Sequence record: NZ_CP024426.1
Source: a plasmid
Direction: 5' to 3' (one strand)
Length of the DNA: 64,000 nt
Part shown: positions 6,889 through 45,304 of the stretch, piece after piece
Layout of the letters: each line of letters begins with the position of its first letter
How positions within the stretch are numbered: the first letter of the stretch is position 1
Notes under the pieces: generated by a model
Seen by the model: only the letters and a program-made list of their open reading frames with translations
Told to the model about the DNA's origin: nothing
The model's database searches: none
Position numbers and translations under genes: made by a program

Positions 6889-6912
6889 GCCGACGCAGGT
6901 TTCCTGCGACAC

Positions 6913-6950: not shown

Positions 6951-7185
6951 TGGCGCCGCGTCGTCACGGAATTGAGAAAGATTAGTCATAATAGTCCCTT
7001 GCCGGCCGAATCCTCCTGCCCGATAATTGCGCGGAACCCCTTGCAGGTGTGCACCGCCTTGACCTTTCGCCTTGTCCATAAGGCCGCCCGTCACAGGGCG
7101 GCCGCTTTTGCGTCCGCCGGCGGCTTCCGCGACGGCGCCATGTCGCTGGGCCGGCCCTCTGCCTTTACGTCCGAAAGACCCGACC

Positions 7186-20026: not shown

Positions 20027-21190
20027 ATGTTCAACGCGGTGATGAATTTCGGTCTGGGCGCGGACATCGAGGCGCTGCGCGACACGGTGCGCCGCTTTGC
20101 CGCGGCCGAGATCGCGCCCCGCGCCGCCCGGATCGACGCCGAGAACGAGTTCCCGCAGGACCTGTGGCGCAAGCTGGGCGACCTGGGCCTGCTGGGCATC
20201 ACCGTGCCCGAGGAGGACGGCGGCGCCGGCATGGGCTATCTCGCGCATTGCATCGCGATCGAGGAGATCAGCCGCGCCTCGGCCTCGGTGGGGCTGTCCT
20301 ATGGCGCGCATTCGAACCTGTGCGTGAACCAGATGCGGCGCTGGGGCACGGCGGACCAGAAGGCGCGCTACCTGCCCGGGCTGATCTCGGGTGCGCAGGT
20401 CGGCGCGCTGGCCATGTCCGAGCCCGGCGCGGGGTCCGACGTGGTCGGCATGAAGCTGCGCGCGACCCGCGACGGCGACACCTATGTGCTGAACGGCAAC
20501 AAGATGTGGATCACCAACGGCCCCGACGCCAGCACCCTGATCGTCTATGCCAAGACCGACCCCGAGGCCGGGCCGCGCGGCATCACCGCCTTCATCGTCG
20601 AACGCGGGATGGCAGGCTTTTCGACGGCGCAAAAGCTGGACAAGCTGGGGATGCGGGGCTCGAACACCTGCGAGCTGGTGTTCCAGGACTGCCGCGTCCC
20701 GGCGGAAAACGTGCTGGGTCAGGTCGGCCAGGGCGTCAAGGTGCTGATGTCGGGGCTGGATTACGAACGCGTCGTGCTGGCCGCCGGCCCGCTGGGCATC
20801 ATGGCGGCCGCGCTGGATATCGTCGTGCCCTATGTCCACCAGCGCGAACAGTTTGGCCAGCCCATCGGCAGCTTCCAGTTGATGCAGGGCAAGATCGCGG
20901 ACATGTATACCACGATGAACGCCTGCCGGGCCTATGTCTATGCCGTGGCCGCCGCCTGCGACCGGGGCGAGACCACGCGCCAGGACAGCGCCGGCTGCAT
21001 CCTCTATGCCGCCGAAAAGGCGACGCAGGTGGCGCTGGAGGCGATCCAGTGCCTGGGCGGCAACGGCTATATCAACGAGTTCGCCACCGGCCGGCTGCTG
21101 CGCGACGCCAAGCTTTACGAGATCGGCGCCGGCACCTCGGAAATCCGGCGGATGCTGATCGGCCGCGAAATCTTTGCGCAGACGGCCTGA
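20027..21190 (+). CDS. ivd: Isovaleryl-CoA dehydrogenase
   Basis: Acyl-CoA dehydrogenase fold, 387 aa, strong IVD-like sequence ([32 protein letters not shown]..., GGNGYINEF); RBS GGAGGAAAG. Confidence 0.9.
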
Positions 21191-21193
21191 GCC

Positions 21194-22801: not shown

Positions 22802-22811
22802 GGGGGCAGGC

Positions 22812-24764: not shown

Positions 24765-25617
24765 GCCGGTCACGATATACGAGGTCGGCCCCCGCGACGG
24801 CCTGCAGAACGAACCGGGTTTCGTTGCCACCGAAACCAAGGTCGCGCTGATCGACCTGCTTTCGGACACCGGGCTGACCCGGATCGAGGCCGCCAGCTTC
24901 GTGTCCCCGAGATGGGTGCCGCAGATGGCCGACGCGGCCGAGGTGATGGCCGCCATCCACCGCCGCCCCGGCATCCGCTATGCCGCCCTGACCCCGAACA
25001 TGCAGGGGTTTCAGGCGGCGCAGGCGGCCCGCGCGGACGAGGTCGCGATCTTCGCCTCGGCCTCGGAAGGGTTCAGCCGGCGCAACATCAACTGCTCGAT
25101 CGCCGAAAGCCTTGCGCGCTTCGAGCCCGTGGCGCAGGCGGCGCGAGCGGCGGGCATTCCCCTGCGCGGCTATGTGTCCTGCGTGGTGGAATGTCCCTAT
25201 GACGGCGCGGTCGCGCCCGAGGCGGTGCGCCGCGTGACCCAGGCGCTGCTGGACATGGGCTGCTATCAGGTTTCGCTGGGCGATACCATCGGGCGGGCCG
25301 GGCCCGACGACATCGACCGGCTGCTGGCCCACCTGGACGCGGCCATCGACCCGGTGCGGCTGGCCGGGCATTTCCACGACACCGGCGGCCGCGCGCTTGA
25401 AAACGTCGCCGTGGCGCTGGACCACGGGCTGCGCACCTTCGACAGCGCCATCGGCGGGCTTGGCGGCTGCCCCTATGCACCGGGCGCGCGGGGCAATGTC
25501 TCGACCCTGCCCCTGGCGCGGATGCTGGCGGACGCCGGCTGGGACGCGGGGCTGGACCTTGGCCTGCTGGCGCGGGCCGAGGCGTTCATGGCCACCCTCA
25601 AGGCGGAAAGCGCATGA
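24757..25617 (+). CDS. hmgL: Hydroxymethylglutaryl-CoA lyase
   Basis: MPEPVTIYEVGPRDGLQNE (HMGL-like TIM barrel); start overlaps the mccA stop (ATGCCTGA). Confidence 0.9.
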   Translation: MPEPVTIYEVGPRDGLQNEPGFVATETKVALIDLLSDTGLTRIEAASFVSPRWVPQMADAAEVMAAIHRRPGIRYAALTPNMQGFQAAQAARADEVAIFASASEGFSRRNINCSIAESLARFEPVAQAARAAGIPLRGYVSCVVECPYDGAVAPEAVRRVTQALLDMGCYQVSLGDTIGRAGPDDIDRLLAHLDAAIDPVRLAGHFHDTGGRALENVAVALDHGLRTFDSAIGGLGGCPYAPGARGNVSTLPLARMLADAGWDAGLDLGLLARAEAFMATLKAESA

Positions 25618-26375
25618 TGCGGACCATCCTGATCCAGCGCGATGCACAGGGCATCGCCACCCTGACCCTGAACCGCCCGGACAAGCATCACGCGATGGAT
25701 GCCCGGATGATCGGCGAACTGACCGAGGCGGCGGCCCTGCTGGGCGAGGACGCCGATGTGCGCGCGGTGGTGCTGGCCTCGACCGGGCCGACGTTCTGCG
25801 CCGGGGGCGACCTGGAATGGATGCGAGCCCAGCAGGCGGCCGACCGCGCCGGCAAGATGGCCGAGGCGGGGCGGCTGTCGGCGATGCTGGCGGCGCTGAA
25901 CGCGCTGCCGAAACCGCTGATCGCGCGGGTCCAGGGCCATGCCTATGGCGGTGGGCTGGGGCTGATCGCGGTCAGCGACATCGCCATCGCGGCGACCGGC
26001 GTGCGGCTGGCGCTGACCGAGACGCGGCTGGGCCTGATCCCCGCGACCATCGGCCCCTTCGTCGTCGCCCGCATGGGCCAGGGCATGGCGCGGCAGGTGT
26101 TCTTTACCGGCCAGGCCTTCGGCACCGATTTCGCCCTGCGCGCAGGGCTGATCCACGACGCCTGCCTGCCGGAGGCGCTGGAGGAGCGCGTCGCGGCCAC
26201 GGCGGCGGCCGTGCTGAAGACGGCACCGGGGGCGGTGGCGCGGGCCAAGGCGCTGTGCCTGCGGCTGGGACGCGATCAGGCGGACGACATCGCTGCCTCG
26301 ATCACCGCGCTGGCCGATTGCTGGGAAAGCCCCGAGGCGCAGGACCGCATCCGCGCCTTTCTGGGGCAGCGATGA
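25614..26375 (+). CDS. liuC: Enoyl-CoA hydratase (methylglutaconyl-CoA hydratase type)
   Basis: Crotonase fold, 253 aa, with GGGLGLIAVSDIAIA oxyanion-hole region; start overlaps the hmgL stop (ATGATG). Confidence 0.8.
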   Translation: MMRTILIQRDAQGIATLTLNRPDKHHAMDARMIGELTEAAALLGEDADVRAVVLASTGPTFCAGGDLEWMRAQQAADRAGKMAEAGRLSAMLAALNALPKPLIARVQGHAYGGGLGLIAVSDIAIAATGVRLALTETRLGLIPATIGPFVVARMGQGMARQVFFTGQAFGTDFALRAGLIHDACLPEALEERVAATAAAVLKTAPGAVARAKALCLRLGRDQADDIAASITALADCWESPEAQDRIRAFLGQR

Positions 26376-26399
26376 CAGGAAAAGGGGAGGGAGGATTTC

Positions 26400-28088
26400 A
26401 TGGGGGAACCAAGCTATGTGTCCGGGGTCTCGGACCAGCCGCTGCTGGGCATGACCATCGGCCAGGCTCTGGACCGGGCGGCGCGGGAATGGCCGGGGCA
26501 GCAGGCGCTGGTCGCCCCCGCCCAGGGCATCCGCTGGACCTGGGCCGAACTGCGCGAACGCGCCGAGGCGCTGGCCGCCGGCCTGCTGGCGCTTGGCCTT
26601 CGGCGCGGCAACCGCATCGGGATCTGGTCGCTCAACCGCGCGGAATGGGCGCTGGTGCAATTCGCCGCCGCCCGCGCGGGACTGGTGCTGGTCACGATCA
26701 ACCCCGCCTACCGCCTGACCGAGCTGGAATACGCGCTGAACAAGGTCGGCTGCGCGGCGCTGGTCACGGCGACCGCGTTCAAGTCCAGCGACTACATGGG
26801 GATGCTGGAAACGCTGGCACCGGAACTGGCCGCGTCCGATCCCGGGCGGCTGTCCTGCGCCCGGCTGCCGAACCTGCGCACGGTGATCCAGATCGGCGGC
26901 CCGGCGCGGGATGGCTGCATCGGCTTTGACGCGGTGGCGGACCTGGGCGGCCCCGCCGAACAGGGCGAACTGGCCCGGCTGGCCGGCGCGTTGCAGTTCG
27001 ATGACCCGATCAACATCCAGTTCACCAGCGGCACCACGGGCTCGCCCAAGGGCGTGACGCTGACCCACCACAACATCCTGAACAACGGCTATTTCGTCGG
27101 CCGCGCGCTGAAGCTGTCGCCCGAGGACCGGATCTGTATCCCGGTGCCGCTGTATCACTGCTTCGGCATGGTCATGGGCAACCTGGCGGCCGTGACCCAT
27201 GGCGCGGCGATGGTCTATCCCGGCGAGGGCTTCGACCCGCTGGCCACGCTGGAAACGGTCCAGGCCGAACGCTGCACCGCGCTTTACGGCGTGCCGACGA
27301 TGTTCATTGCCGAACTCGAACATCCCGAATTCGACCGCTTCGACCTGTCGTCGCTGCGCACCGGGATCATGGCGGGATCGCCCTGCCCCATCGAGGTGAT
27401 GAAGAAGGTGGTTCAGCGCATGCACATGCGCGACGTGACGATCGCCTATGGCATGACCGAAACCAGCCCGGTCAGCTTTCAAAGCGCGACCGACGACCCG
27501 CTGGACCGGCGCGTTTCGACCGTGGGCCGCATCCATCCGCATCTTGAGGTCAAGGTGGTGGACGCCGATGGCCGCATCGTGCCGCGCGGCGAGCCGGGCG
27601 AATTGTGCACCCGCGGCTATTCGGTGATGCTGGGCTATTGGGACGACCCCGAAAAGACCGCCGAGGTCATCGACGCGGGCGGGTGGATGCACACGGGCGA
27701 CCTGGCCCGGATCGACGATCAGGGCTATTGCAACATCGTCGGCCGCATCAAGGACATGGTGATCCGGGGCGGCGAGAACCTGTATCCGACCGAGATCGAG
27801 GAATTCCTGTTCACCCATCCCAAGATCCGCTCGGTCCAGGTCTTCGGCGTCGCCGACCACCGCTTCGGCGAAGAGCTTTGCGCCTGGATCGTGCTGCGCG
27901 ACGGCGCGGCGATGACCGATGACGAGGTCCGCGATTTCTGCCGCGGCCAGATCGCGCACCAGAAGATCCCGCGCTATGTCGAATTCGTCGAAAGCTTCCC
28001 GATGACCGTGACCGGCAAGGTGCAGAAGTTCATCATGCGCCGCGAGGTCGAGGCGCGGCTGGGCCTGGTGGCCGAGGAGACGGCATAG
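26400..28088 (+). CDS. AMP-dependent acyl-CoA synthetase/ligase
   Basis: AMP-binding motif [25 protein letters not shown], and a final K in TGKVQK; 562 aa. Confidence 0.85.
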
Positions 28089-35152: not shown

Positions 35153-36244
35153 TCAGGGCCGTTCCGGCGGACCGGGGCGGCGCAGGCGCCCGACCAGCAG
35201 CAGTGCCAGCGCGCCGACCAGCACCAGCCCGTGACCGGGCGCGGCCGGCTGGGCAGCCTGGGCAGGGGCAGGCGCGGCGGGCATCGGCGCGGGGTCCTTC
35301 GGCGGCGTGGAGGCGGGGGCGGCCTGATCAAAGACCGAACTGTGCGCGTCTCCGGCGGCGCCGGAATCCTGCCGCTCGATTTCGGAATTCAGCTCTGCCC
35401 CCATCAGCATGGCATAGGCCGAAACCCACAGCCAGGTCAGCAGGATGACCACGCCGCCCAAGGCGCCATAGGTTTCCGTGTAGCTGCCGAAGTAGCGCGC
35501 ATAAAGCGAAAAGCCCACGGTGCCCGCGATCCACAGTGCCGTGCCCAGCACCGCCCCCGGGCTGATCCAGCGCCAGCCGGCCGAGCGCTTGGCCGGCCCG
35601 ATCCGATAGACCAGCGCAAATCCCAGCACCGCGATCCCGGCCAGGATCGGCCAGCGCAGCCACAGCAGACCCGAACCTGCCGCCTGCGTGTCGCCCAGTG
35701 CCGGCAGGACCGGCAGCAGCACGACCACGCCGATGGCCAGCGCCATGCCCACGATCAGCCCCAGCGTCAGGGCGAAGGCCGTCGCGTAAAGCCGGACGAT
35801 GCCACGGGTTTCCTGTTCGCCATAGGCGATGTTGAGCCCCTCGATCAGGGTCAGGATGCTTTTCATCGCGCCATAGACGGCGATGGCAAAGCCCGCCAGC
35901 GCGACGAACCCGGTCGCGGTGTTCTCGCCGCCCGCGACCTTCGTCACCTGGTCGCCGATGATCGCCCCGGCGCTTTCGGGCAGGACGGCGACCAGGTCCG
36001 ACACCTCGCCCGCGACCTCGGCCGGGTCCAGGATCAGCCCCGCGACCGAGATGAAGGCCGCGATCGCCGGAAAGATCGACAGCAGCGTATAGAAGGCGAT
36101 GCCCGCCGCCACGACCCCGATGTGATCCTGCGAGATCTGCTCGCGCAGGCGCGACAGGATCGCCTTCCACCCGGCCAGATCCCGGTGCCAGGCATTGCCG
36201 CCCCCGGCTTTCGATTGCGTTCCCGCCGTGCGTGTCGTTGCCAT
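35153..36244 (-). CDS. YihY/BrkB-family inner-membrane protein
   Basis: YihY signature (GIAFYTLLSIFPA), about 6 TM segments; start MATTRTAG at the complement of 36242-36244. Confidence 0.8.
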   Translation of the reverse strand: MATTRTAGTQSKAGGGNAWHRDLAGWKAILSRLREQISQDHIGVVAAGIAFYTLLSIFPAIAAFISVAGLILDPAEVAGEVSDLVAVLPESAGAIIGDQVTKVAGGENTATGFVALAGFAIAVYGAMKSILTLIEGLNIAYGEQETRGIVRLYATAFALTLGLIVGMALAIGVVVLLPVLPALGDTQAAGSGLLWLRWPILAGIAVLGFALVYRIGPAKRSAGWRWISPGAVLGTALWIAGTVGFSLYARYFGSYTETYGALGGVVILLTWLWVSAYAMLMGAELNSEIERQDSGAAGDAHSSVFDQAAPASTPPKDPAPMPAAPAPAQAAQPAAPGHGLVLVGALALLLVGRLRRPGPPERP

Positions 36245-36433
36245 CGCCTGTCCCCCGCTTCTGGTCCGCCCGGGCAAGGGGCGCGCGGAATTCAACGTCC
36301 ACGCCACCGCCGGAAGTTCCCCGGACCACGCAAGATCCGGTGGAGCCGGGGAAAACCGGCAACAGCCCCCCGTCATCGCTGTTTTCAGCAACGGTTTTTC
36401 GTGCTATGCTGGTGGGGTTGTTAGGAGGTGCGA

Positions 36434-36541
36434 ATGAAACCCCTGGTTCTTTTCCTGACGTTGACCTTTTCCCTGATTGGTGCCCTGGACAGCGGCCCGG
36501 CCCACGCCGGACCTTGCAATCCCAACGTCCAACGCTGCTGA
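36434..36541 (+). CDS. 35-codon secreted peptide precursor: Sec-type signal peptide plus a 10-aa mature peptide GPCNPNVQRC with two cysteines
   Basis: AGGAGG Shine-Dalgarno 5 nt before the ATG; MKPLVLFLTLTFSLIGALDSGPAHA|GPCNPNVQRC has an n/h/c signal-peptide layout with an AHA-G cleavage site; it is followed by a GC-rich hairpin and T-tract (36556-36597). Below the 60-aa ORF-track threshold. Confidence 0.45.
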   Translation: MKPLVLFLTLTFSLIGALDSGPAHAGPCNPNVQRC

Positions 36542-36612
36542 ACGACTCCGGCGCCGACCCCTGGGGCCGGCGCCCGGTTTTCCGTATTTGTTAATCGGTA
36601 TTCGGAGGCCCC

Positions 36613-39600
36613 ATGGCAGACCCATGGCCGGCCGAGGTGCCCGCGTCCCTGTGGACCTTCAACCAGCTTTCCGCCGAAGAGGTGGTGCAGGTCCCCATGA
36701 TGGGCGTCAAATTCGCCTCGGGCTTCTTGTACGCCTTTGCCTTTGGCTGCATTTTCATCGCGGTTTTCGCCTGGCAAAGATTTCGCATCAAGACGGTGGT
36801 GAAATCCCCGTCGCGCGCCCTGACCCAGCTTGGGCCCAATGACCTTGGCGGCCAGGCTGCCCTGATCCGGGCCTATTTCATCTATGCGGGCTCGATCCTG
36901 CTGCTTTATGTCTCGTTGACGTTCTTTGGCAAGCTGCTGGTGCAGATGGCCCGCCTGGTGCCTGCCATCGGCATCGACGCCTATGCAGACAAGCTGCGCT
37001 TCGACAGCCCGCAATGGCCGCTGATGCTGGCATTCGGCTTTGCAGGCCTGGCGCAGATGCTGCCCCCGGTCGCCGCGATCGAAGGCTGGCTGCGGCTGCG
37101 CGCCTATCGCGCGGTGGGCATCCCGGTGCGGCTGGAACAGACCATGCGCAACCTGATCGTGACCCTGGAGCGCGCGGGGCCGAAAGGCGACCTAGAGGAA
37201 TCCCCGCTGGGCAAGGCGCTGTCATGCTATCGCGCGCAATGGGACGGGATAATCAAAGGCCACGCCTGGGCGGGCGCCTGGGCGCGGCGGCGCGCGAGCC
37301 GCGCGCAGGACCTGGTTTCGCTGTTGTCGCAGCTTGAACTGCTGGTGTCCTGGTCCAAAAGCAAGCGCGGCAGCTGGCCGGGACACGAGGTGTCCCAGAC
37401 CGTGCGCGACCTTGAGGAAACCTATGTCCGCGAAAGCGGAGACCTGCTGAACGAATTCCAGCAGCGCATGAGCGAACCGCCCGAGATCGACGACAGGCGC
37501 CTGTCCGGCACCCGCGAGGCCCGGTTGGACGATTATCTTAACACGACGTTCAGCAAAGCCGAAGGCTTGCGCCATGACTTGGTGGGAATCCTTGCGATCT
37601 TTCTGGAACGCGACATCGACAGCCCCGACCGCACTGATGACTTCAAGGATCACAGCTATACGGACCCTGCCCTGCACGCGCTTCTGATCAAGACCGCGCG
37701 GGCGGACAGCGCGGGGACAGGCCCGGAATCGGGGCTGTTCGCCGCCCTGATCGCCGTCTTCGTCCTGTGCGCCGCCGCGGCTTGGCGGGGACTGCAGGAT
37801 CCGGTGGGGCAATATGTCGAGCGGACGAACCTTTACGGGATGCTGATCTCGGCGCTGGTGGAAACGCTGCGCCTGGCTTCCCTGACCTGGCTGCCGCTTC
37901 TTGCCGCATTTTCGCTGCGCCAATACCTGTGGGACAACGGCGACTGGGCCCGCGCGCGCTACAGCACCAAGCCCGATCACTATGCCGGGCAGATCCTAGT
38001 CTGCACGTCGCTTGGCGTTGCGACAGGTGTGCTGGGACTGGTTCTGGTGGCTGCGCTGAAGGCGTTCTTCATTGCCACAAACCGCGAGTATTTTGCCGAA
38101 TTGCTGGCGGGGGGCCCCGCGCCGTTCCTGCTTTACTATCCGACGCAGGCGATCATCCTGCCCGCGCTGATCCCCCTGGCCATCTATTCCGCCGATCTAA
38201 GCAAGACCCCGCACCGCCGGCTGATCTGGGGTGTCGTGGCGGCCCTGGTGATCGGGACGCTATGGCTTGCCCATGCAACCTACTGGAACGGGACCGTCCT
38301 GATCCGCGACTGCGTGTCCGCGACCGCAATTCTGACCGAGGCCTGCGTCCGCCGGATGGACCTGATAAGCCATCTGGCCCTGATGACACTGACCTTTCTG
38401 GCGGTCGGCATCTTTGGCGACCTGCCCGAGCGGCGCCGCGCGAATGTCCGTGAACGCGAGCGGACCGGGACAGGCGTCGAAAGCGCCGCCGGTCTGGCAT
38501 TGCTGGCGATGCTGTTCCCGATGCTGGTCTTGGCGCCAACGTCAGCCCGCGCCGAGCCCGAGCCGGTTCGCATCGGGTTTCGCTTCGACATCGCGCCATT
38601 TTCCTATCGGAATGAAGCAAGCGGCCCGCGCCAGTTCCACGGCTATCTGGCCGATATGTGCTTTGACATCTTCGACGGCTATCCCGCCTACAAGGTCGAG
38701 GCCGTGCCCGTCGGGGCGAAAGACCGCTTCGACATGTTCAACGCGGGTAACGTGGATCTCTTGTGCGACGCCGTTACCATGCGGTTTTCCGAACGCGACC
38801 GATCCGAAAAGGGGATCTATTCACCCATCGTCTTCGTATCGGGCGTGTCCTATCTGGAAACGGGCAACCGCAATGTCGGGGCGGTCGCTCTGGGCTTCGT
38901 GCTGAACGCGACGGCGCGGGACGTTGCGCTCAAGACCTGCCATGTGGACCAGTTTCGGGTCTTCATGCCGGATACGCGGGCGCTGCTGGTGGAACGCTGC
39001 AACCTGCGCTGGCAGGCGGCATTGCTGGCCCAGCGTTTGCTGAACGAACCAAGCATCGTGCAAAGCCCCGCAAGCCAGATCGCGGTCACGCAGGTCGATC
39101 CACGCCGGCGCGCATCCCTTGATGCTGTCATGGAGTCTTGGCGTCGCCTGCACGAGGACTGGGAAACGCTTCACCAAAGGGCCGAAAATCTGAACACGAT
39201 GGTCCAGGACCAGAACATCACGCGGTTGAGCACCGCCACCACGGCACTGATCAAAACCGTGCTGAGTGACGGGAACGGTATCCAGACCTGCCTGGACAGC
39301 CTAGGGAGGAACGCTGCGGTCTGCGCCGAGGCCAGCAAAGCCCTGTCCGACCCGCGTTGCGGCGGGATCGCCGACAAGAACGCCTCTGCCAAGGCACCGG
39401 CCGATGCGAACATCCCCTTTGAGCAGCGCATATGGGACGATTACAGTTTTTGCCCCATGTCCGACCACGGCGCGCTGATCAAGTGGTTCTGCACATCCGG
39501 CAAGGACCTGCGCCGAGTCTATCTGGGCGACCGCGAGCTGATCGTCGCCAAGCGCGACGCCTGGGCGCGCGACATCGGTTCATGCCCGGTGCAGCGGGCC

Positions 39601-39897
39601 GAGGGGGCCGAGTTCCTGTCCTATGAGCCTTATGCATTTCTGGTTCAAAGGAAAAAGCCCGCCCTGGCGGCCTTCGTCCAGCAGCGGGTCTATGAGCTGT
39701 TTTCGAACCGCGCCCAGATGATCGCGCGCTTCAACGCCAGCTTTTCCAGGAAGGATGCTTCCGGCAGCGGCCAGCCGGATGTTCGCATGTCCGTGCCTCT
39801 GGCCTATCTGTTCCTGCTGAACGCCGTCGAGAACGACACGCTGTTCCTGCCGAACGCCGATCTGTCGCCGGAAGCGGCGGCGGGGAACCGCCCTTAG
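36613..39897 (+). CDS. Large polytopic membrane protein with a periplasmic-type solute-binding (SBP_bac_3-like) domain and a C-terminal Cys-rich domain
   Basis: About 10 predicted TM helices in two clusters (aa 30-140 and 370-620); then a signal-anchor-like segment LALLAMLFPMLVLAPTSARA; then a family-3 SBP-like domain (RIGFRFDIAPFSYRN...GYLADMCFDIF...DLLCDAVTM); C-terminal 200 aa with at least 7 Cys. Local GC is visibly lower than in the flanks. Confidence 0.8.
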   Translation: MADPWPAEVPASLWTFNQLSAEEVVQVPMMGVKFASGFLYAFAFGCIFIAVFAWQRFRIKTVVKSPSRALTQLGPNDLGGQAALIRAYFIYAGSILLLYVSLTFFGKLLVQMARLVPAIGIDAYADKLRFDSPQWPLMLAFGFAGLAQMLPPVAAIEGWLRLRAYRAVGIPVRLEQTMRNLIVTLERAGPKGDLEESPLGKALSCYRAQWDGIIKGHAWAGAWARRRASRAQDLVSLLSQLELLVSWSKSKRGSWPGHEVSQTVRDLEETYVRESGDLLNEFQQRMSEPPEIDDRRLSGTREARLDDYLNTTFSKAEGLRHDLVGILAIFLERDIDSPDRTDDFKDHSYTDPALHALLIKTARADSAGTGPESGLFAALIAVFVLCAAAAWRGLQDPVGQYVERTNLYGMLISALVETLRLASLTWLPLLAAFSLRQYLWDNGDWARARYSTKPDHYAGQILVCTSLGVATGVLGLVLVAALKAFFIATNREYFAELLAGGPAPFLLYYPTQAIILPALIPLAIYSADLSKTPHRRLIWGVVAALVIGTLWLAHATYWNGTVLIRDCVSATAILTEACVRRMDLISHLALMTLTFLAVGIFGDLPERRRANVRERERTGTGVESAAGLALLAMLFPMLVLAPTSARAEPEPVRIGFRFDIAPFSYRNEASGPRQFHGYLADMCFDIFDGYPAYKVEAVPVGAKDRFDMFNAGNVDLLCDAVTMRFSERDRSEKGIYSPIVFVSGVSYLETGNRNVGAVALGFVLNATARDVALKTCHVDQFRVFMPDTRALLVERCNLRWQAALLAQRLLNEPSIVQSPASQIAVTQVDPRRRASLDAVMESWRRLHEDWETLHQRAENLNTMVQDQNITRLSTATTALIKTVLSDGNGIQTCLDSLGRNAAVCAEASKALSDPRCGGIADKNASAKAPADANIPFEQRIWDDYSFCPMSDHGALIKWFCTSGKDLRRVYLGDRELIVAKRDAWARDIGSCPVQRAEGAEFLSYEPYAFLVQRKKPALAAFVQQRVYELFSNRAQMIARFNASFSRKDASGSGQPDVRMSVPLAYLFLLNAVENDTLFLPNADLSPEAAAGNRP

Positions 39898-39934
39898 CCG
39901 ACCCATCCGCAACCCTTGCAGGCAGGAGCCGCCC

Positions 39935-42900
39935 ATGAAGCTGCAGATCCACGGCCAAAAGCAGGTCCCGGTCGACGAGACGCCGGCAGCAAACGGGGCC
40001 GTTACCGTCGAGGTCAAGGACAGGGTCACCGTGACCGGCCTCCGCGGCGATGCCCTGCCGGTGCAGATCGACCTGCCGCCGGACCATGTGCTGGAACTGC
40101 AGATGGAGGGCGAGGGCGCCCCCCGCCTGCTGCTGCGCGGGGACGAGGCGCAGGCCCTGCTGGCGGGCGGCGCGGCGATGACCCGCGACGGCGCGGGCGA
40201 CGATCTGCTGGTGCTGCCGACCCATCTGCAGCTTGACCCGCCCGCGCGCGGTCGCCGCGGTCTGGACCGGGGACTGCTGGCCTGGGCGGTTAAGACCGTC
40301 CAGGTGCTCAAGGTCGATGGCAAGCCCGCCGAGGCAGCCCGCCAGCTTGAGGATCAGAACCCCGCGCTGGGGCTGAACCGCTGGCTGCCCGACGGCACGC
40401 TGGAGCCCCTTGCCCCCGGCACCGCAGCCGAGGGCAAGACCTGGCTTTTGTTCCTGCACGGCACGGCCTCTTCGACGCTGGAGGGCTTTGGCAAGCTGAT
40501 CGGGGCGCAGCCGGCGATCTGGCGCCAGCTGCATGCGACCTACCCCGGACGGGTGCTGGCCTTCGACCACCGCACCCTGACCGAGGATCCGATCCAGAAC
40601 GCCACGACGCTGCTGGCGGCGCTGCCTCCGGACATCACTCTGCACCTTGTCAGCCACAGCCGCGGCGGGCTGGTGGGCGAATTGCTGGCCCGGCCGCAAC
40701 TGGTCGCGCCGGGCACCGACACGGTGTTCGACCCGGCCGAGGTGCAGGAACTGGCCGAACGGGACCGCCCTGCGGCCGAGGAACTGGGCCAGGCGCTGGT
40801 CGCTAGCGGGGTGCGGGTCACGCGCTTTGTCCGGGTGGCCTGCCCGGCGCGCGGCACCGACCTTGCCGGTGGCCGGCTGGACCGCTGGCTGAACCTGCTG
40901 TTCAACCTGGTGCAGCAAACGATCGACCCCCTGGCCATCGACGATGCTGTGAAGCGCAAGGTCGAGGGGCTGCGGCGGCTGGCCTTGGCGGCCTCGGCCG
41001 GGAAAGACAACCCCGACGCCCTGCCCGGCATCGCGGCCATGGCGCCGGATTCGTCCCCGCTGCTGGCCATCCTGAACCGCCGCCCCGCCAACCCCGCCCC
41101 GCCCCAGGACGAAGCCCCCGCACAGGACGGGCTGGTCGTCATCGGCGGCGACGCCGAGCCGGCGGGCGTCGTCAAGCGCCTGCTGGTCTGGCTGGCCGAC
41201 GCGCTGCTCCAGGGAGAGAACGACCTGGTGGTGGAAACCGGCTCGGTCGGGGGCGGGACGCCCCGCGCCGTGGCCCCGCCCCTGGTGCTGGATCGCGGGC
41301 CGCAGGTCGATCATTCGCGCTTCTTCGCCAACGACCGGACCGCGCAGGCGATGCTGCTGGGATTGCGCGACCCCGCCCTGCTGAGAGAGGGCTCGGTCCC
41401 CTCGCTGCCCGAGCAGATGCGCGAGGCCGAGGCCAGGCTGCGCAGCACGATCCGCTCGGCCGATGCCGCGCCTTTTCTGTCGCGGGGCCGGGGCACGCCA
41501 CTGGCCGTTATACTGCCTGGGATCACCGGCAGCCACCTTGCCGTGGGGAAGAATCGCGTCTGGGTCAGCCCTTTCGGCATCTGCACGCGGGGCGTGAAGT
41601 CCCTGGCGCTCGGCAAGACGCAGATCACGGAAGACGGGGTGGTCGGGCTTTACTACGGCGCGCTTTGCGATCATCTGGCGCGCAGCCACGAGGTCGTGGC
41701 CATGCCTTATGACTGGCGCCTGTCCCTGCAGGACCTGGGCGCCCGCCTGGCGGCAAGGCTGACGGCCCTGCTGGCCCAGGACGACAGCCGCCCGCTTCAC
41801 ATCGTCGGCCATTCGATGGGCGGGCTGGTCGCGCGCATGGCGCTGGCCCAGTCGCCCGAGCTGATGCGCGGCTTTCTGGCCCATCCCGAATCGCGCTTGC
41901 TGATGCTGGGGACGCCGAACGGCGGGTCCTGGCAGATGGGGCTGGCGCTGTTGGGACGGACCCGGACGGTCAAGGCGCTGGCCCTGCTCAGCCCGCATGA
42001 CGACATCGGCGACATCACCGCCATCCTGCGCGAATGGCCCGGCGCGGTGCAGCTTTTGCCGCCCGAGCTGCTGGTCCCGGAACCCTGGGCGGGATTTGAC
42101 GCCGAAGCGCCCTCGGCCCAGGCTTTGGCCTTGGCGGCGCAGGCCCAGGTCCTGCTGCGGGACAAGGCGGGCATTCCGAAAGGCCGCAGCCTTTACGTCG
42201 CCGGGATGGGCGATACCTGCGCCGAGCTTCTTGTCGTCGATGGCGCGTTGAGCATGCGGGTTTCGCCCGAGGGCGACGGCACCGTCTTGTGGCGCACCGG
42301 CATCCCCGACGGGGTCCCGGTCTGGTATGCGCCGTCGGAACACGGCGACCTGTGCAAGGACGCCTATCTGCATCCGGCAATCGCCGACCTGCTGCTGCGG
42401 GGAACGACCACCCTGCTGTCGGACCGGCCGGGCCGGCGCGGGGCGACTGCCGCAGTGGCGGCCACCCAGGTCGTCCCGGCCACGGAGGTTCTGCCCCTGA
42501 TCCCTTCGGGCCCGCAGCTGCTGGCGATGGCCATGGGGGCCAGCCCGCCCGCGCTGCTGGACCGCTCGGCCCCCAGCCCCGAGGTCCGCGTGACCGTGGT
42601 CCACGGCAACCTGGAGTTCGCGCGCCACCCGATTCTGGTCGGCCACAACCTGGGCGATCCGATCATGGGGGCCGAGGCGGCGCTGGACCGCAGCCTGAAC
42701 GGCAGGCTCAGCCGGCGCAATGCGCGCGGCCTGCACCCCGGCATCATCGAAAGCTGGGATGTGCATGTGGAACCCGTCACCACGACCGATGCGGGCGGCG
42801 CGGCGGGCACGGGCCTGCGGGGCGGCATCGTGGTGGGGCTGGGCGTCGCCTCGGCACTGACCACGGGCAGCCTGATGCGGACCATCCGCTGCGGTCTGCT

Positions 42901-45304
42901 GGCCTATGCCGACGCCGTCCAGCAGACCGACACGGACCGGCGCGCCCTGGCCGTTTCGGTGGTGTTGCTGGGCAGCGGCAGCGGCATGATCGCGGTCGCC
43001 GACAGCGTCAACGCCATCCTGAACGCGGTCGACCAGGCCAACCGCCTGCTGGAAACCGAGCCTGCCGGCGCGGTCCCGGGCGACGAGCCCCTGCGCTTTA
43101 CCGAGATCGAGATCATCGAGTCGGTCGAACAGATCGCCGTCACCGCCTGGCACTCGGCGCGCGGCCGCATCACCCGCCTGCCCGGCCGCTTCGCCCTGGC
43201 CGGCCGGCTGGAGCAGGGGCGTGGCGGCTGGCGCCGGACCGGCCCCGAAACCGCGCCCGACTGGTGGATGGAGGTGTCGATCACCTCGGACCCGCCCGAG
43301 CCGGCCGCGCCCGGCCAGCCCGGCCGCGAAGGCCCGCTGCGCTATCTGCTGGTGGACGGGCGCGCCCGGGTCGAGGCCAAGGTGGTCGCCACCAGCCGCC
43401 GGCTGGTCGGGCACTATGTCTCGATGATCCCGGACAGCGTGGGCATGGCGGACCCGCGGGGCCTGTCGCCGGGGCGGACGCTGTTTGAACTGCTGTGGCC
43501 CGCAGAGCTGAAGCAGCACAGCATCGAGGACCGCAACCTGCGCTTGGTTCTGGACCGCGAGACGGCTGCGATCCCGTGGGAGATGCTGGACGACCGCCGC
43601 CCCGCGCGCGACGGCTTCGGCGAAGAGGTCCTGATGGCGACCAAGCCCCCGTCCGTGCGCTACGGGGTGCTGCGCCAGCTGTTGGCGCAACGCGAGCGTC
43701 CGCTTCGGCCTCTGGGCGGCGGCAACCGGCAGGCGCTGGTCATCGGCGATCCGCGCGGGGGCGGCAGCACGCTGCCCACCCTGCCCGGCGCCCGGGCCGA
43801 GGCCGAAGCGGTCGCAGGTCTGCTGGAGGCGGCAGGCTATGGCGTGACGCGCATGATCGGCGACACCGCCACCCCGGACCAGGTGATCGCCGCGCTGTTC
43901 TCGCGCGTGTGGGACGTGATCCATGTGGCCAGCCACGGCGTCCTTGACTGGCAACCCACCCCCGACCAGCCGCCGCGCACCGGGATCGTGCTGGGCGCGC
44001 CGCCGCTGGACGTGATCGAATCCGGCATCCTGGCGCAACTGCCCGAGCCGCCGGCGCTGGCCTTTCTGAACTGTTGCCACCTGGGCAGCATCCCCGAAAG
44101 CGACCGTCACCTGCGCCGCGACCGGCCGGCCCTGGCCGCAAGCCTGGCGGTCGAACTGATCGAGGCGGGCTGCCCCGCCGTGGTCGCCTGCGGCTGGGCC
44201 GTCGACGACGGCTCCGCCATGCGCTTTGCCCGCACGCTTTACACCGATCTTTGCGGCGGCCAGAACTTTGGCGCCGCCGTGCGCCATGCGCGCGAGGTGG
44301 CCCATGACGGCGCCACCACCGACAACACCTGGGGCGCCTATCAGTGCTATGGGCATCCGGGCTTTGCGCTGTCGCTTGCGCCCAGGGGCTGGACCGAGGC
44401 CACGCCGGACGCCGCCTCTCCGTCCGAGGCGGTGGCGGTTCTGCAGCGCCTGAGCACCTGCGCCACCGCCCCGCCTGCGCCGCTGTCCGGCGATCCCGCC
44501 GGGACCCAGCGCCTGCGCCAGGACTTCTTGGCCACGCGCGAGGCCGATTTGATCCGCCTGGGCAAGTTCGAGGAGGACATCCGCAGGAACGGCTGGGCCG
44601 ACCGCTCGGATGTGGCAAGCGCGCTTGGCGATGCCTATGCCGCCTGCGGCGACATCACCAGCGCCGTCGATGCCTATCGCCGCGCGGCCATGGCCGAGAC
44701 GCTGACCCTGCCGGTGCGCGCGCTGCAGGACCGATTTGCGCTGCCTTTGCGCCTGCCGAAGGATGACGCCAACGAACTGCGCGCCGCGGTCCAGGCGATG
44801 GGCCTGCTGAACACCGCCTGCGGCCCCAGCCCGCAGCGGCTGGAACTGATCGCGGGCCTGCACCTGCGCCTGGCCGCCCTGGAAAGCCAGGCCAAGCCCC
44901 GGAACGCCGCGCTGGACCAGGCCCTGGACGCGCTGAACGAGGCGCATGATCTGGCCACCCAAGGCGGCAGCGTTGCCGCGGCCGGGCGTATCGCGCTGCG
45001 GCGGCTGCTGGCGGCCATCCTGCGCGGCAAGAATGCGGCCGACACGGCAACGGCCGCCGGGGCGGCGCTGGCGGCCTTGCCACGGGACGACCCGCAGCGC
45101 CCGCTGGCGCTGTTCCTGCAGGCGCTGGCGCAGGGCGACACGAATGCAATCGCCGCCCTGCCCCGGGACGACGCCCTTCAAGCCCTGGACTCCGACACGC
45201 TGTGGACCCTGGCCGAGGCGGCGCGGCTGGCCGGGGACTGCCTGACCGGATCCTTGGGCGATGCGGCCAAGGCCTGCGCCCGCGACCTGTCGATGCTGAT
45301 CTAG
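39935..45304 (+). CDS. 1789-aa multidomain protein: N-terminal domain, two lipase-like alpha/beta-hydrolase modules, CHAT (caspase-like) protease domain, C-terminal helical (TPR-like) repeats
   Basis: GxSxG nucleophile elbows LHLVSHSRGGLVGELL and LHIVGHSMGGLVARMAL (Lipase_2/PGAP1-like); CHAT hallmarks VIHVASHGVLDW (His) and ALAFLNCCHLGS (Cys), about 160 aa apart; Ala/Leu-rich helical repeat tail; no signal peptide; RBS AGGAG before the ATG at 39935; 37-nt gap from the upstream gene. Confidence 0.85.
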   Translation: MKLQIHGQKQVPVDETPAANGAVTVEVKDRVTVTGLRGDALPVQIDLPPDHVLELQMEGEGAPRLLLRGDEAQALLAGGAAMTRDGAGDDLLVLPTHLQLDPPARGRRGLDRGLLAWAVKTVQVLKVDGKPAEAARQLEDQNPALGLNRWLPDGTLEPLAPGTAAEGKTWLLFLHGTASSTLEGFGKLIGAQPAIWRQLHATYPGRVLAFDHRTLTEDPIQNATTLLAALPPDITLHLVSHSRGGLVGELLARPQLVAPGTDTVFDPAEVQELAERDRPAAEELGQALVASGVRVTRFVRVACPARGTDLAGGRLDRWLNLLFNLVQQTIDPLAIDDAVKRKVEGLRRLALAASAGKDNPDALPGIAAMAPDSSPLLAILNRRPANPAPPQDEAPAQDGLVVIGGDAEPAGVVKRLLVWLADALLQGENDLVVETGSVGGGTPRAVAPPLVLDRGPQVDHSRFFANDRTAQAMLLGLRDPALLREGSVPSLPEQMREAEARLRSTIRSADAAPFLSRGRGTPLAVILPGITGSHLAVGKNRVWVSPFGICTRGVKSLALGKTQITEDGVVGLYYGALCDHLARSHEVVAMPYDWRLSLQDLGARLAARLTALLAQDDSRPLHIVGHSMGGLVARMALAQSPELMRGFLAHPESRLLMLGTPNGGSWQMGLALLGRTRTVKALALLSPHDDIGDITAILREWPGAVQLLPPELLVPEPWAGFDAEAPSAQALALAAQAQVLLRDKAGIPKGRSLYVAGMGDTCAELLVVDGALSMRVSPEGDGTVLWRTGIPDGVPVWYAPSEHGDLCKDAYLHPAIADLLLRGTTTLLSDRPGRRGATAAVAATQVVPATEVLPLIPSGPQLLAMAMGASPPALLDRSAPSPEVRVTVVHGNLEFARHPILVGHNLGDPIMGAEAALDRSLNGRLSRRNARGLHPGIIESWDVHVEPVTTTDAGGAAGTGLRGGIVVGLGVASALTTGSLMRTIRCGLLAYADAVQQTDTDRRALAVSVVLLGSGSGMIAVADSVNAILNAVDQANRLLETEPAGAVPGDEPLRFTEIEIIESVEQIAVTAWHSARGRITRLPGRFALAGRLEQGRGGWRRTGPETAPDWWMEVSITSDPPEPAAPGQPGREGPLRYLLVDGRARVEAKVVATSRRLVGHYVSMIPDSVGMADPRGLSPGRTLFELLWPAELKQHSIEDRNLRLVLDRETAAIPWEMLDDRRPARDGFGEEVLMATKPPSVRYGVLRQLLAQRERPLRPLGGGNRQALVIGDPRGGGSTLPTLPGARAEAEAVAGLLEAAGYGVTRMIGDTATPDQVIAALFSRVWDVIHVASHGVLDWQPTPDQPPRTGIVLGAPPLDVIESGILAQLPEPPALAFLNCCHLGSIPESDRHLRRDRPALAASLAVELIEAGCPAVVACGWAVDDGSAMRFARTLYTDLCGGQNFGAAVRHAREVAHDGATTDNTWGAYQCYGHPGFALSLAPRGWTEATPDAASPSEAVAVLQRLSTCATAPPAPLSGDPAGTQRLRQDFLATREADLIRLGKFEEDIRRNGWADRSDVASALGDAYAACGDITSAVDAYRRAAMAETLTLPVRALQDRFALPLRLPKDDANELRAAVQAMGLLNTACGPSPQRLELIAGLHLRLAALESQAKPRNAALDQALDALNEAHDLATQGGSVAAAGRIALRRLLAAILRGKNAADTATAAGAALAALPRDDPQRPLALFLQALAQGDTNAIAALPRDDALQALDSDTLWTLAEAARLAGDCLTGSLGDAAKACARDLSMLI

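What the first reader, a model, noticed from the sequence alone, without database searches (positions are those of the whole stretch)
36250..45304. Three-gene insertion: secreted cysteine peptide, membrane SBP-domain protein, giant lipase-CHAT protease; candidate novel signalling/conflict system
Between a YihY membrane-protein gene and the rhamnose locus lies a unidirectional trio with no obvious metabolic logic. (i) A 35-codon ORF with a consensus AGGAGG RBS encodes a Sec signal peptide plus a 10-residue two-Cys peptide (GPCNPNVQRC), followed by a hairpin and T-tract. (ii) A 1094-aa protein has about 10 TM helices, an extracytoplasmic family-3 solute-binding domain and a Cys-rich tail; its GC content is lower than the flanks. 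(iii) After a 37-nt gap comes a 1789-aa cytoplasmic protein with two GxSxG lipase modules, a CHAT caspase-fold protease domain (His in VIHVASHG, Cys in FLNCCHLG) and helical repeats. CHAT proteases are typical effector or signal-processing components of bacterial conflict and programmed-cell-death systems. Coupling one to phospholipase-like domains and a putative peptide-sensing membrane receptor suggests a ligand-triggered membrane-damaging or proteolytic module. This is not a textbook arrangement and recalls no described system.
Basis: partly seen in the sequence, partly recalled or inferred. Interest (0 to 1): 0.88.

Follow-up and report, generated by a model that had tools for sequence, protein, structure and literature searches.

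The report
Secreted cyclic peptide, orphan receptor, CHAT-lipase
An unannotated 35-codon gene for a secreted two-cysteine decapeptide is always paired with a large membrane protein of unknown fold in Alphaproteobacteria, and in some Paracoccus this pair is welded to a giant protease-lipase, which looks like an undescribed peptide-sensing conflict or signalling system.

Summary
The window matches a Paracoccus yeei plasmid, and all three ORFs and their domains are real.

- **Conserved core.** The core is two genes, not three. A signal-peptide ORF ending in (G)PC[ND]Pxx[Q]xC lies 45-200 nt upstream of every one of about 40 homologues of the 1094-aa membrane protein. This holds down to 27% identity and across Rhodobacterales and Rhizobiales.
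- **The peptide gene.** It shows coding-type selection. No source names it.
- **The membrane protein.** It has an N-terminal 10-helix domain with no fold relative and a periplasmic Venus-flytrap (SBP-3) domain.
- **The CHAT protein.** It has two alpha/beta-hydrolase modules, a CHAT protease and a TPR-like tail. It belongs to a large stand-alone family. It is joined to the pair only in one Paracoccus clade, where the two large genes co-diverge (r = 0.99) and usually overlap by 4 nt.
- **New here.** P. yeei carries two receptor alleles with dS 0.88, against 0.03 in the flanks.

Most likely this is a peptide ligand and receptor module that gates a lytic effector. That mechanism is inferred, not shown. 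I score it as interesting and apparently undescribed.

The parts
36423..36428 (+). AGGAGG ribosome-binding site of the peptide gene
   Evidence: Read directly from the sequence. A GGAG-type motif lies 5-10 nt before the start codon in most other loci.
36434..36508 (+). Signal peptide of the precursor, 25 codons (MKPLVLFLTLTFSLIGALDSGPAHA)
   Evidence: Of 40 distinct precursors, all 40 have K/R in residues 2-5 and a hydrophobic core. 39 of 40 have a -3/-1 (AxA-type) site 1-4 residues before Cys1. The sequence is otherwise poorly conserved, as expected of a signal peptide.
36509..36541 (+). Predicted mature decapeptide GPCNPNVQRC plus the stop codon. There are two Cys with six residues between them, so a disulfide ring is presumed.
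   Evidence: The motif is conserved in about 40 loci. Codon-position entropies are 0.67 / 0.38 / 1.40, which indicates selection on the amino-acid sequence. A degenerate DNA pattern hits each locus once, and only at this place.
36548..36581 (+). GC-rich hairpin plus T-tract after the peptide gene, a possible leaky terminator
   Evidence: MFE -23 kcal/mol, z = -1.6, not significant. Strong hairpins follow the stop codon in several other loci, but not in all.
36613..38532 (+). Gene B membrane domain, aa 1-640. It has about 10 TM helices and a 216-aa cytoplasmic helical domain (aa 157-372, nt 37081-37728) with the invariant motifs YRAVGIPVR, RGSWPG, FLERD and GTGPE.
38533..39897 (+). Gene B periplasmic Venus-flytrap domain (SBP family 3 fold), aa 641-1094. 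It carries a helical insertion of about 155 aa (aa 786-940, nt 38968-39432) and 8 invariant Cys.
   Evidence: Pfam SBP_bac_3. PDB profile hit to DEBP 2ia4. Foldseek target TM-scores of 0.67-0.74 to amino-acid-binding proteins. In L031 the domain is a separate protein with its own signal peptide.
36770..39785 (+). Allelic (mosaic) block of gene B. It is replaced by a 64%-identical allele in other P. yeei strains, while the flanks, the peptide gene and gene C stay 98-100% identical.
   Evidence: dS is 0.88 inside the block against 0.02-0.035 outside. dN/dS is 0.33 overall and 0.56 in the helical insertion.
39935..40444 (+). Gene C N-terminal region, aa 1-170. It is conserved across the family and matches no known domain.
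40445..41344 (+). Gene C alpha/beta-hydrolase module 1 (DUF7379). It has an HG oxyanion motif (H175-G176), Ser242 in HSRGG (nt 40658-40660) and an invariant His460.
   Evidence: Pfam DUF7379 at 126.5 bits. Invariant residues come; positions were checked.
41492..42364 (+). Gene C alpha/beta-hydrolase module 2 (LCAT/lipase-like). It has Ser627 in GHSMGG (nt 41813-41815), Asp781 and His803.
   Evidence: Pfam LCAT at 31.1 bits against a cut-off of 21. Weak PDB hit to LCAT. Conservation.
42485..43468 (+). Gene C middle domain, aa 851-1178. It is conserved and matches no known family.
43469..44353 (+). Gene C CHAT caspase-fold protease domain. His1334 is at nt 43934-43936 and Cys1380/Cys1381 at nt 44072-44077.
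   Evidence: Pfam CHAT at 108.7 bits. The dyad is invariant in 24 homologues. There is a weak PADLOC BovA hit over the catalytic region.
44372..45304 (+). Gene C C-terminal helical (TPR-like) region. It is homologous to the TPR-S region of stand-alone relatives but has diverged.
   Evidence: Only weak TPR hits. PF20308 (TPR-S) is recorded for relatives at 41% identity or less, and not for the Paracoccus clade.

Best explanation
The locus holds a two-gene ligand and receptor module, with a lineage-specific effector attached.

Step 1 (sequence-based, strong). The 35-aa precursor is exported by Sec and cut by signal peptidase I after AHA. This releases GPCNPNVQRC into the periplasm, where its two Cys are expected to form an 8-residue disulfide ring.

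Step 2 (inferred from invariant gene pairing and fold). The peptide is the cognate ligand of the Venus-flytrap domain of gene B.

Step 3 (inferred). Occupancy of that domain is relayed through the 10-helix bundle to the conserved, arginine-rich cytoplasmic helical domain. That domain is the output of an otherwise self-contained module.

Step 4 (inferred from operon structure and co-divergence). In the Paracoccus clade this output controls the translationally coupled gene C. Gene C is a cytoplasmic CHAT protease fused to two Ser-hydrolase (lipase-like) modules and a TPR-like tail. It is of the protease-plus-hydrolase type seen in death and defence effectors.

What the switch reports is open. 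It could be peptide concentration (kin or quorum), or loss of the periplasm-confined peptide on envelope breach.

Old, recombining receptor alleles within one species point to diversifying or frequency-dependent selection, as at conflict or self-recognition loci.
For: - Pairing: the peptide ORF lies upstream of gene B in 36 of 36 loci first surveyed, and again in the further loci L042, L043, L045-L047, L050, L051, L060 and L064.
- Reverse test: every pattern hit with a true signal peptide was followed by gene B where the contig allowed it.
- Coding and secretion: coding selection and signal-peptide statistics support a translated, exported product.
- No other conserved neighbour exists.
- Gene B fold: the C-terminal domain has an SBP fold, and L031 shows a natural split of that domain. 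The N-terminal domain is an orphan fold that is modelled with confidence.
- B-C coupling: they overlap by 4 nt in 6 of 8 loci, identities correlate at r = 0.99, and the flanks differ between hosts.
- Gene C: its catalytic residues are invariant.
- Precedent: a caspase-like protease paired with an alpha/beta-hydrolase acts as a death effector (PMC12642450).
- Receptor dimorphism: dS is 0.88 against 0.03. Two non-synonymous changes in the mature peptide accompany the allele swap.
- Neighbours: lytic enzymes recur next to the module in Rhizobiales.
Against: - There is no direct evidence of binding, signalling or toxicity.
- Gene B has no recognisable output domain.
- Identical mature peptides pair with receptors that are only 49-65% identical (W against L007, L001 against L042). 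Strict ligand and receptor co-variation is therefore not seen.
- A peptide of about 1.08 kDa with no outer-membrane exporter may never leave the periplasm, which weakens a quorum-sensing reading.
- Gene C is absent from most loci and works alone elsewhere.
- The terminator-like hairpin is not statistically distinctive.
- The enrichment of lytic neighbours was not tested against a background.
Confidence: 0.42

Rival explanations
1. Gene B is an importer, working by RRNPP-like logic. It is a new kind of SBP-dependent secondary transporter. The secreted peptide is captured by the flytrap domain, re-imported, reduced, and read in the cytoplasm, in Paracoccus by the TPR-like tail of gene C.
For: - SBP domains, whether fused or separate, are the hallmark of uptake systems. 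L031 has a free SBP with its own signal peptide that is translationally coupled to the membrane part.
- The nearest stand-alone relatives are ordinary SBP_bac_3 proteins.
- Gene C ends in TPR-like repeats, and TPR domains bind peptides in RRNPP receptors (established knowledge).
Against: - There is no ATPase or known permease nearby.
- Most loci have no cytoplasmic TPR partner.
- A 216-aa conserved cytoplasmic helical domain is not typical of a permease.
Confidence: 0.15
2. The module is an envelope-integrity guard, a variant of the main model with reversed sign. The peptide is confined to the periplasm and keeps the receptor occupied. Outer-membrane or cell-wall breach by phage, a T6SS or lysins dilutes the peptide, and the empty receptor then releases the lytic effector.
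For: - The peptide has a Sec signal only and no outer-membrane export gene is present.
- Its mass is about 1.08 kDa, above the usual porin cut-off (established knowledge).
- Peptidoglycan hydrolases and lipases recur beside the module.
- Gene C relatives lie next to TIR, Tle1-like and Fic genes.
Against: - It is entirely inferential.
- The Paracoccus loci sit among metabolic genes, not in defence islands.
- PADLOC gives only a weak BovA hit.
Confidence: 0.13
3. The small product is a structural subunit or chaperone. It is a constitutive partner of gene B, either as a cleaved peptide or as an uncleaved single-pass protein. Gene B senses or transports something else.
For: - The gene pairing is invariant and no further partner is conserved.
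- Small proteins often act as subunits of large membrane complexes (established knowledge).
- Identical peptides tolerate receptors that are 49% identical.
Against: - The hydrophobic segment is conserved only in character, while the -3/-1 cleavage motif is kept in 39 of 40 precursors.
- Conservation is concentrated in the 10 C-terminal residues.
Confidence: 0.13
4. The linkage is incidental. Gene C acts on its own, as its relatives do, and merely hitch-hikes next to the peptide and receptor pair in Paracoccus.
For: - Gene C homologues stand alone in Paenirhodobacter, Falsiroseomonas and Geobacter.
- The pair stands alone in about 30 loci.
- GC3 differs between the two genes (0.80 against 0.89).
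- An allele swap of gene B left gene C untouched.
Against: - B and C overlap by 4 nt in 6 of 8 loci, and the order is kept through divergence to about 50% identity in at least four different genomic contexts, with r = 0.99.
- The clade's C-terminal region has lost the TPR-S signature that its stand-alone relatives keep.
Confidence: 0.1
5. The peptide is a small toxin or bacteriocin, and gene B is its immunity protein or receptor.
For: - The peptide is secreted and carries a disulfide.
- The module is plasmid-borne and sporadically distributed.
- The partner gene is polymorphic.
Against: - A 10-residue hydrophilic peptide is unlike known bacteriocins.
- A 1100-aa protein with a flytrap domain is unlike known immunity proteins.
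- There is no export or lysis gene.
- The peptide varies little, while the supposed immunity gene varies a great deal.
Confidence: 0.05

Closest known systems
Gram-positive peptide pheromone cassettes with allelic groups (agr AgrD/AgrC, ComC/ComD, ComX/ComP)
   Same: - A small ribosomal precursor gene lies next to its membrane receptor.
- The peptide is cyclic or modified.
- A sharply bounded hypervariable block sits inside conserved flanks, with very old alleles in one species.
   Different: - The hosts here are Gram-negative.
- Export uses a plain Sec signal peptide, and cyclisation would be by disulfide. There is no AgrB- or ComQ-type maturation gene.
- The receptor has no histidine-kinase domain, and no response regulator is present.
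- The variable block covers the receptor, not the peptide.
Venus-flytrap (SBP-3) sensor proteins: BvgS/EvgS-type kinases, LuxP-LuxQ, GluR0/iGluR channels, and SBD-fused ABC importers such as GlnPQ
   Same: A periplasmic type-II binding fold is joined to a membrane domain. A naturally split version exists.
   Different: - There is no HisKA or HATPase domain, no Lig_chan pore and no ABC domain.
- The 620-aa membrane domain has no fold relative.
- The flytrap carries a 155-aa helical insertion and four presumed disulfides.
- The presumed ligand is a gene-encoded peptide.
Caspase-like protease plus alpha/beta-hydrolase zymogen defence modules (LcCaspase/LcHydrolase; Evans et al. 2025 preprint, PMC12642450)
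   Same: A caspase-fold Cys protease is genetically tied to a lipase-like Ser hydrolase of unknown substrate, and is attached to variable sensors.
   Different: - Here two hydrolase modules, CHAT and TPR-like repeats form a single 1789-aa chain.
- No homology to LcHydrolase was tested.
- No cleavage sites are known.
- The candidate sensor is a membrane receptor encoded upstream.
Borvo (BovA), a single-gene CHAT anti-phage system
   Same: The CHAT catalytic region matches weakly (PADLOC 22.9 bits, E = 9e-6). Borvo is described as a CHAT-protease defence gene.
   Different: - The match covers only 163 of 711 profile positions.
- BovA has no hydrolase modules.
- Gene C is 2.5 times longer.
DUF7379/CHAT/TPR-S giant proteins (Pfam PF24096 + PF12770 + PF20308), some with a fused TIR domain
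   Same: Gene C is a full-length member at 32-57% identity with the same domain order.
   Different: The family has no described function (no papers found). The Paracoccus clade lacks the TPR-S signature, and it alone is operonic with the peptide and receptor pair.

Membership tests
CHAT (PF12770) caspase-fold proteases - gene C | Profile match above the curated threshold | tested here: met
   108.7 bits against a cut-off of 24, covering profile positions 3-288 of 289.
CHAT (PF12770) caspase-fold proteases - gene C | Catalytic His-Cys dyad present and conserved | tested here: met
   H1334 and C1380/C1381 are invariant in 24 homologues at 32-58% identity.
DUF7379 (PF24096) - gene C | Profile match above the curated threshold, with the alpha/beta-hydrolase nucleophile motif | tested here: met
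   126.5 bits against a cut-off of 33. H175-G176, S242 and H460 are invariant.
LCAT-like lipase / alpha/beta hydrolase - gene C module 2 | GxSxG nucleophile with conserved Asp and His | tested here: met
   LCAT scores 31.1 bits against a cut-off of 21. In GHSMGG, S627 is conserved in at least 90% of sequences, and D781 and H803 are invariant. Assignment of the triad was not checked on a structure.
Borvo (BovA) | Full-length similarity to the BovA profile | tested here: not met
   Only 22.9 bits over profile positions 508-670 of 711.
Protease-activated alpha/beta-hydrolase zymogen modules (PMC12642450) | A separate hydrolase with two conserved R|G cleavage sites that are cut by the partner caspase | not tested
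   Only the paper was read. No sequence of LcHydrolase was available for comparison, and the architecture here is a fusion.
SBP_bac_3 (PF00497) periplasmic binding fold - gene B C-terminal domain | Profile match and a two-lobe type-II fold | tested here: met
   27.4 bits against a cut-off of 26.4, which is marginal. PDB profile hit to 2ia4 at E = 3e-4. Foldseek target TM-scores of 0.67-0.74.
SBP-dependent ABC importer | Adjacent ABC permease and ATPase genes | tested here: not met
   No neighbour other than the peptide ORF is conserved across 35 loci.
VFT-domain sensor histidine kinases (BvgS-type) | Cytoplasmic HisKA/HATPase_c domains | tested here: not met
   No Pfam or NCBIfam match anywhere in aa 1-640, nor in the cytoplasmic domain scanned on its own.
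Ionotropic glutamate-receptor-type channels (GluR0) | Binding domain interrupted by an M1-P-M2 pore (Lig_chan) | tested here: not met
agr/Com-type peptide quorum sensing | A precursor peptide gene next to the receptor, with allelic specificity groups | tested here: inconclusive
   Pairing and receptor dimorphism are present. However, identical peptides pair with very different receptors.
agr/Com-type peptide quorum sensing | A dedicated maturation or export protein, a histidine kinase and a response regulator | tested here: not met
   None is present in the loci.
RiPP natural products | A modifying enzyme encoded next to the precursor | tested here: not met
   No conserved neighbour exists apart from gene B, and gene B has no enzyme-family match.
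Bacterial lipoproteins (for the small ORF) | A lipobox, [LVI][ASTVI][GAS]C | tested here: not met
   The residues before Cys1 are mostly A-G-P. 39 of 40 precursors fit a signal peptidase I -3/-1 site instead.

The most novel reading that the evidence does not exclude
Alphaproteobacteria possess an undescribed class of peptide signalling.

- A Sec-exported, disulfide-cyclised decapeptide is read by an orphan-fold receptor with a Venus-flytrap domain.
- This sensor pair serves an interchangeable slot of envelope-lytic effectors. These are the CHAT protease with double lipase in Paracoccus, and peptidoglycan amidases, transglycosylases or GDSL lipases in Rhizobiales.
- Ancient receptor alleles are kept by balancing selection.

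Together this would be a kin-recognition or programmed-lysis system with no homology to known quorum-sensing or defence systems.
Probability: 0.3. Interest if true: 0.92.

Novelty: categorically new. Interest (0 to 1): 0.8.

Why it matters
Gene-encoded peptide signals with dedicated receptors are a hallmark of Gram-positive bacteria and are almost unknown in Gram-negatives.

- **A testable new pair.** A rigidly conserved pair of a secreted cyclic decapeptide and a receptor of unknown fold can be tested directly with a cheap synthetic 10-mer. The pair is found in plant symbionts (Rhizobium, Sinorhizobium, Mesorhizobium) and in an opportunistic human pathogen (P. yeei).
- **An entry point to a large orphan family.** The link to a giant CHAT-lipase protein gives an experimental handle on DUF7379/CHAT/TPR-S, a family of more than 1000 proteins with no known function or trigger.
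- **A sign of ongoing selection.** The receptor dimorphism inside one species suggests selection of the kind seen at self-recognition or immunity loci.
- **An annotation gap.** The 35-codon gene is missing from RefSeq annotation.

Tried and rejected
**Searches that gave nothing**
- NCBIfam and PHROGs gave nothing useful for any of the three proteins.
- PADLOC gave only a weak, partial BovA hit.
- Rfam found no RNA family in 36000-36800 at E <= 1, so a riboswitch or leader RNA is not supported.
- No sigma-70-like promoter was found in the intergenic region.
- PDB sequence search gave only flytrap-domain and weak LCAT hits.
- Literature searches for DUF7379, for TPR-S with CHAT, and for six peptide strings returned nothing relevant.

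**Readings considered and rejected**
- A regulatory upstream ORF is rejected. The product has a signal-peptide architecture, its own RBS, and conservation confined to the C-terminal 10 residues.
- A lipoprotein reading is rejected because there is no lipobox.
- A RiPP reading is rejected because there is no modifying enzyme.
- Phage origin is rejected. The three viral-contig pattern hits lack a signal peptide and gene B.
- Strict peptide and receptor co-variation is rejected as a general rule.
- L035 and L036 'split' gene B copies look like frameshifts in long-read MAGs. Only L031 is counted as a natural split.

**Not done**
- No peptide and receptor co-folding was run.
- No controlled test was made of the enrichment of lytic neighbours or of defence-island location.

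Full report
**Origin and observation.** The window matches a Paracoccus yeei plasmid (NZ_CP038053.1 and NZ_CP020445.2, about 174 kb) at 98-99% identity. The RefSeq gene coordinates of NZ_CP020445.2 coincide exactly with the ORFs in the window.

All three ORFs are present as described:
- **Peptide gene.** 36434-36541, 35 aa, with AGGAGG at 36423-36428.
- **Gene B.** 36613-39897, 1094 aa.
- **Gene C.** 39935-45304, 1789 aa, after a 37-nt gap.

Pfam gives SBP_bac_3 for gene B. The score is marginal at 27.4 bits. For gene C it gives DUF7379 (1.6e-36), LCAT-like (1.9e-7) and CHAT (5e-31).

The peptide gene is absent from the annotation tables of the plasmid records, which by the tool's own description are incomplete. 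Where any source lists it, it is only 'hypothetical protein'.

**The small ORF is a real, conserved gene.** I collected gene B homologues (73 in the first search, all alphaproteobacterial). I then fetched 32 genomic loci with a profile scan, plus loci found by exact protein look-ups.

- **Position.** In all 36 loci first surveyed, a 33-45-codon ORF lies 45-200 nt upstream of gene B on the same strand. The same holds in L042, L043, L045-L047 and in four metagenome contigs.
- **Precursor features.** Among 40 distinct precursors, all have K/R in residues 2-5 and a hydrophobic core. 39 have a -3/-1 (A-x-A type) site 1-4 residues before the first Cys. Predicted mature peptides are 10-12 residues long, and 37 have exactly six residues between the two Cys. 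The consensus is (A)GPC[ND]P[NQ][VIL]Q[RNKQST]C.
- **Coding signature.** Across 28 distinct DNA versions of the mature part, the entropies at codon positions 1, 2 and 3 are 0.67, 0.38 and 1.40. This is the signature of selection on the peptide, not on an RNA.
- **Reverse test.** A degenerate DNA pattern for the motif hits 23 of the fetched loci, once each and only at the expected place, and nowhere else in them. The other 24 loci have no hit, because their motif variant falls outside the pattern or because they lack the module. In 241 million metagenome records it gives 17 hits. Five of these have a true signal peptide. Four of the five are followed by gene B, and the fifth sits at a contig end. 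The other twelve hits, and all three viral hits, lack a signal peptide.
- **Hairpin.** The hairpin and T-tract after the gene exist, but are not more stable than shuffled sequence.
- **Other checks.** No Rfam family and no lipobox are present.

**Gene B.** Hydropathy and an AF2 model (pLDDT 82.5) give about ten TM helices. They also show a 216-residue cytoplasmic helical domain between TM3 and TM4, and a C-terminal periplasmic domain.

- **Periplasmic domain.** It has the type-II binding-protein fold of amino-acid-binding proteins (DEBP 2ia4 and others, target TM-scores 0.67-0.74). It carries a helical insertion of about 155 residues and eight invariant cysteines.
- **Family size.** An exhaustive profile search of 1.84 billion representatives finds a small family of about 45 full-length representatives. 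Beyond these there are only fragments and ordinary SBP_bac_3 proteins.
- **Natural split.** In a Thermohalobaculum genome (L031) the flytrap is a separate protein. It has its own signal peptide and overlaps the membrane gene by 4 nt.

**Gene C.** It belongs to a large family. More than 1000 hits share the order DUF7379 - LCAT-like - CHAT, with TPR-S in most more distant relatives, and some carry a fused TIR domain.

These residues are conserved in 24 homologues:
- H175-G176, S242 and H460 are invariant.
- S627 is conserved in at least 90% of sequences, and D781 and H803 are invariant.
- The CHAT residues H1334 and C1380/C1381 are invariant.

Elsewhere these proteins stand alone. They lie beside a Tle1-like lipase and Fic (Paenirhodobacter), beside TIR and DUF4062 genes (Falsiroseomonas), or carry TIR fused on (Geobacter).

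The only named defence relative is Borvo/BovA, and that match is weak and partial. A 2025 preprint shows that caspase-like proteases paired with alpha/beta-hydrolase zymogens are protease-activated death effectors (PMC12642450).

**What is and is not linked.** Gene C follows gene B in these sources:
- P. yeei;
- Paracoccus sp. DMF and sp. TOH;
- P. siganidrum, P. simplex and P. binzhouensis;
- two Logan assemblies of public sequencing runs (L042, L043).

In that clade the flanks differ: rhamnose locus, Znu/PepSY genes, fimbrial and nap genes, or acyl-CoA dehydrogenase. B and C overlap by 4 nt in 6 of 8 loci, and their pairwise identities correlate at r = 0.99.

Gene C is absent from P. broussonetiae, P. 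ravus and all Rhizobiales loci. No other neighbour is conserved. The invariant unit is therefore peptide plus gene B, and gene C is a clade-specific addition.

Other Paracoccus plasmids have the same rhamnose locus ending at the FGGY kinase, with unrelated neighbours. This fits an accessory cassette sitting at a synteny break.

**An unexpected polymorphism.** A second P. yeei lineage (L045, L046) has the same flanks and the same gene C at 98-100% DNA identity. Its gene B is only 64% identical. The breakpoints are sharp, at about 36770 and 39785.

- **Divergence.** Synonymous divergence inside the block is 0.88, against 0.02-0.035 in gene C, YihY and FGGY. dN/dS is 0.33 overall and highest (0.56) in the flytrap insertion.
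- **Sister lineage.** A more divergent lineage with the same upstream YihY neighbour (L047, YihY about 85% identical at DNA level) carries a third allele, about equally distant from both.
- **Reading.** The alleles are therefore old. They were either maintained or exchanged by recombination, and both are under purifying selection.
- **Peptide gene.** It differs at three bases. One is synonymous and lies in the signal peptide. Two are non-synonymous and lie in the mature peptide (GPCNPNVQRC against GPCDPNIQRC).
- **Caveat.** Identical mature peptides elsewhere accompany receptors that are only 49-65% identical. A strict pherotype model is not established.

**Interpretation.** The best-supported reading is a peptide ligand and receptor module. 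Its receptor state controls the CHAT/hydrolase protein in Paracoccus.

- **Sequence-based, not experimentally shown.** Export-type architecture of the precursor, selection on the peptide, invariant pairing with gene B, the flytrap fold, B-C operon coupling, and conservation of catalytic residues.
- **Inferred.** Disulfide formation, binding, signal relay, and effector control.

Rivals, in order of confidence:
1. An SBP-dependent importer feeding a cytoplasmic TPR reader.
2. A periplasmic-integrity guard.
3. A constitutive small subunit.
4. Incidental linkage.
5. A toxin and immunity pair.

Lytic enzymes recur next to the module in Rhizobiales: Amidase_2, Amidase_3/M15/GDSL, SLT and PLD. Tle1-like lipases recur next to gene C relatives. 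These hint at a variable effector slot, but I ran no background control.

**Novelty and score.** Gene C alone is a new member of a known but functionally undescribed Pfam family. No paper was found for DUF7379.

I could match the peptide and receptor pair, and its fusion to a CHAT-lipase, to no described system. The searches covered profile libraries, solved structures and the literature.

I rate the whole as categorically new, with the caveat that function is inferred. Interest is 0.8.

Noticed in passing
L040 6413-9696 (NZ_CP031079.1, P. yeei CCUG 32053 pYEE1): Gene B is annotated as two overlapping CDSs (6413-7858 and 7846-9696). This is either a frameshift that inactivates the receptor in this strain or a sequencing error. 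Gene C is intact.
   Followed up: no
L004 3906-9752; L021 14323-16791; L023 8142-9734; L024 13110-15488; L027/L034 about 7025-8939; L033 442-3792; L010 7362-9164: Large envelope-degrading enzymes sit directly beside the peptide and receptor pair in several Rhizobiales and in P. aerius. They include Amidase_2 + PG_binding_1, GDSL-lipase/Amidase_3/Peptidase_M15, SLT + PG_binding_1, and PLD-like proteins. This may be a variable effector slot. I ran no background control.
   Followed up: partly
L037 5853-7574 and L042 11318-13483: T6SS_Tle1-like phospholipase genes lie next to gene C homologues in two unrelated contexts, one with the peptide and receptor pair and one without it.
   Followed up: no
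L031 9986-13242 (Thermohalobaculum MAG): Gene B is naturally split. A 647-aa membrane protein is followed by a 438-aa flytrap protein with its own signal peptide, with a 4-nt overlap. N-only and C-only representatives also appear in the exhaustive search (P0264, P0265, P0257 and others).
   Followed up: partly
L016 9819-9929 (R. leguminosarum bv. viciae L244): The peptide here is divergent (…VAAA|PNMCRQQTCPT), with only four residues between the Cys. It still lies upstream of a full-length gene B. It could be a decayed or a re-specified ligand.
   Followed up: no
window 45301-45304: The gene C stop codon overlaps, by 4 nt, the stop codon of the convergent FGGY-family kinase gene of the rhamnose locus. 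No terminator could fit between the two genes.
   Followed up: no
window 7233-13338: A 1956-aa DUF3320-domain protein is followed by a small WGR-domain gene on the opposite strand. This is another giant uncharacterised protein on the same plasmid, and it may be defence-related.
   Followed up: no
window 36434-39897 against 39935-45304: GC3 is 0.69 in the peptide gene and 0.80 in gene B, against 0.89 in gene C and 0.86-0.91 in the flanking genes. Gene B has a lower GC3 than gene C in all eight Paracoccus loci compared. The gap ranges from 0.005 in L009 to 0.087 in the window.
   Followed up: partly
window 52-5004 and 20027-28088: The same plasmid carries a carotenoid (crt) cluster and a leucine/isovalerate catabolism cluster. 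These are ordinary metabolic cargo and are unrelated to the finding.
   Followed up: no
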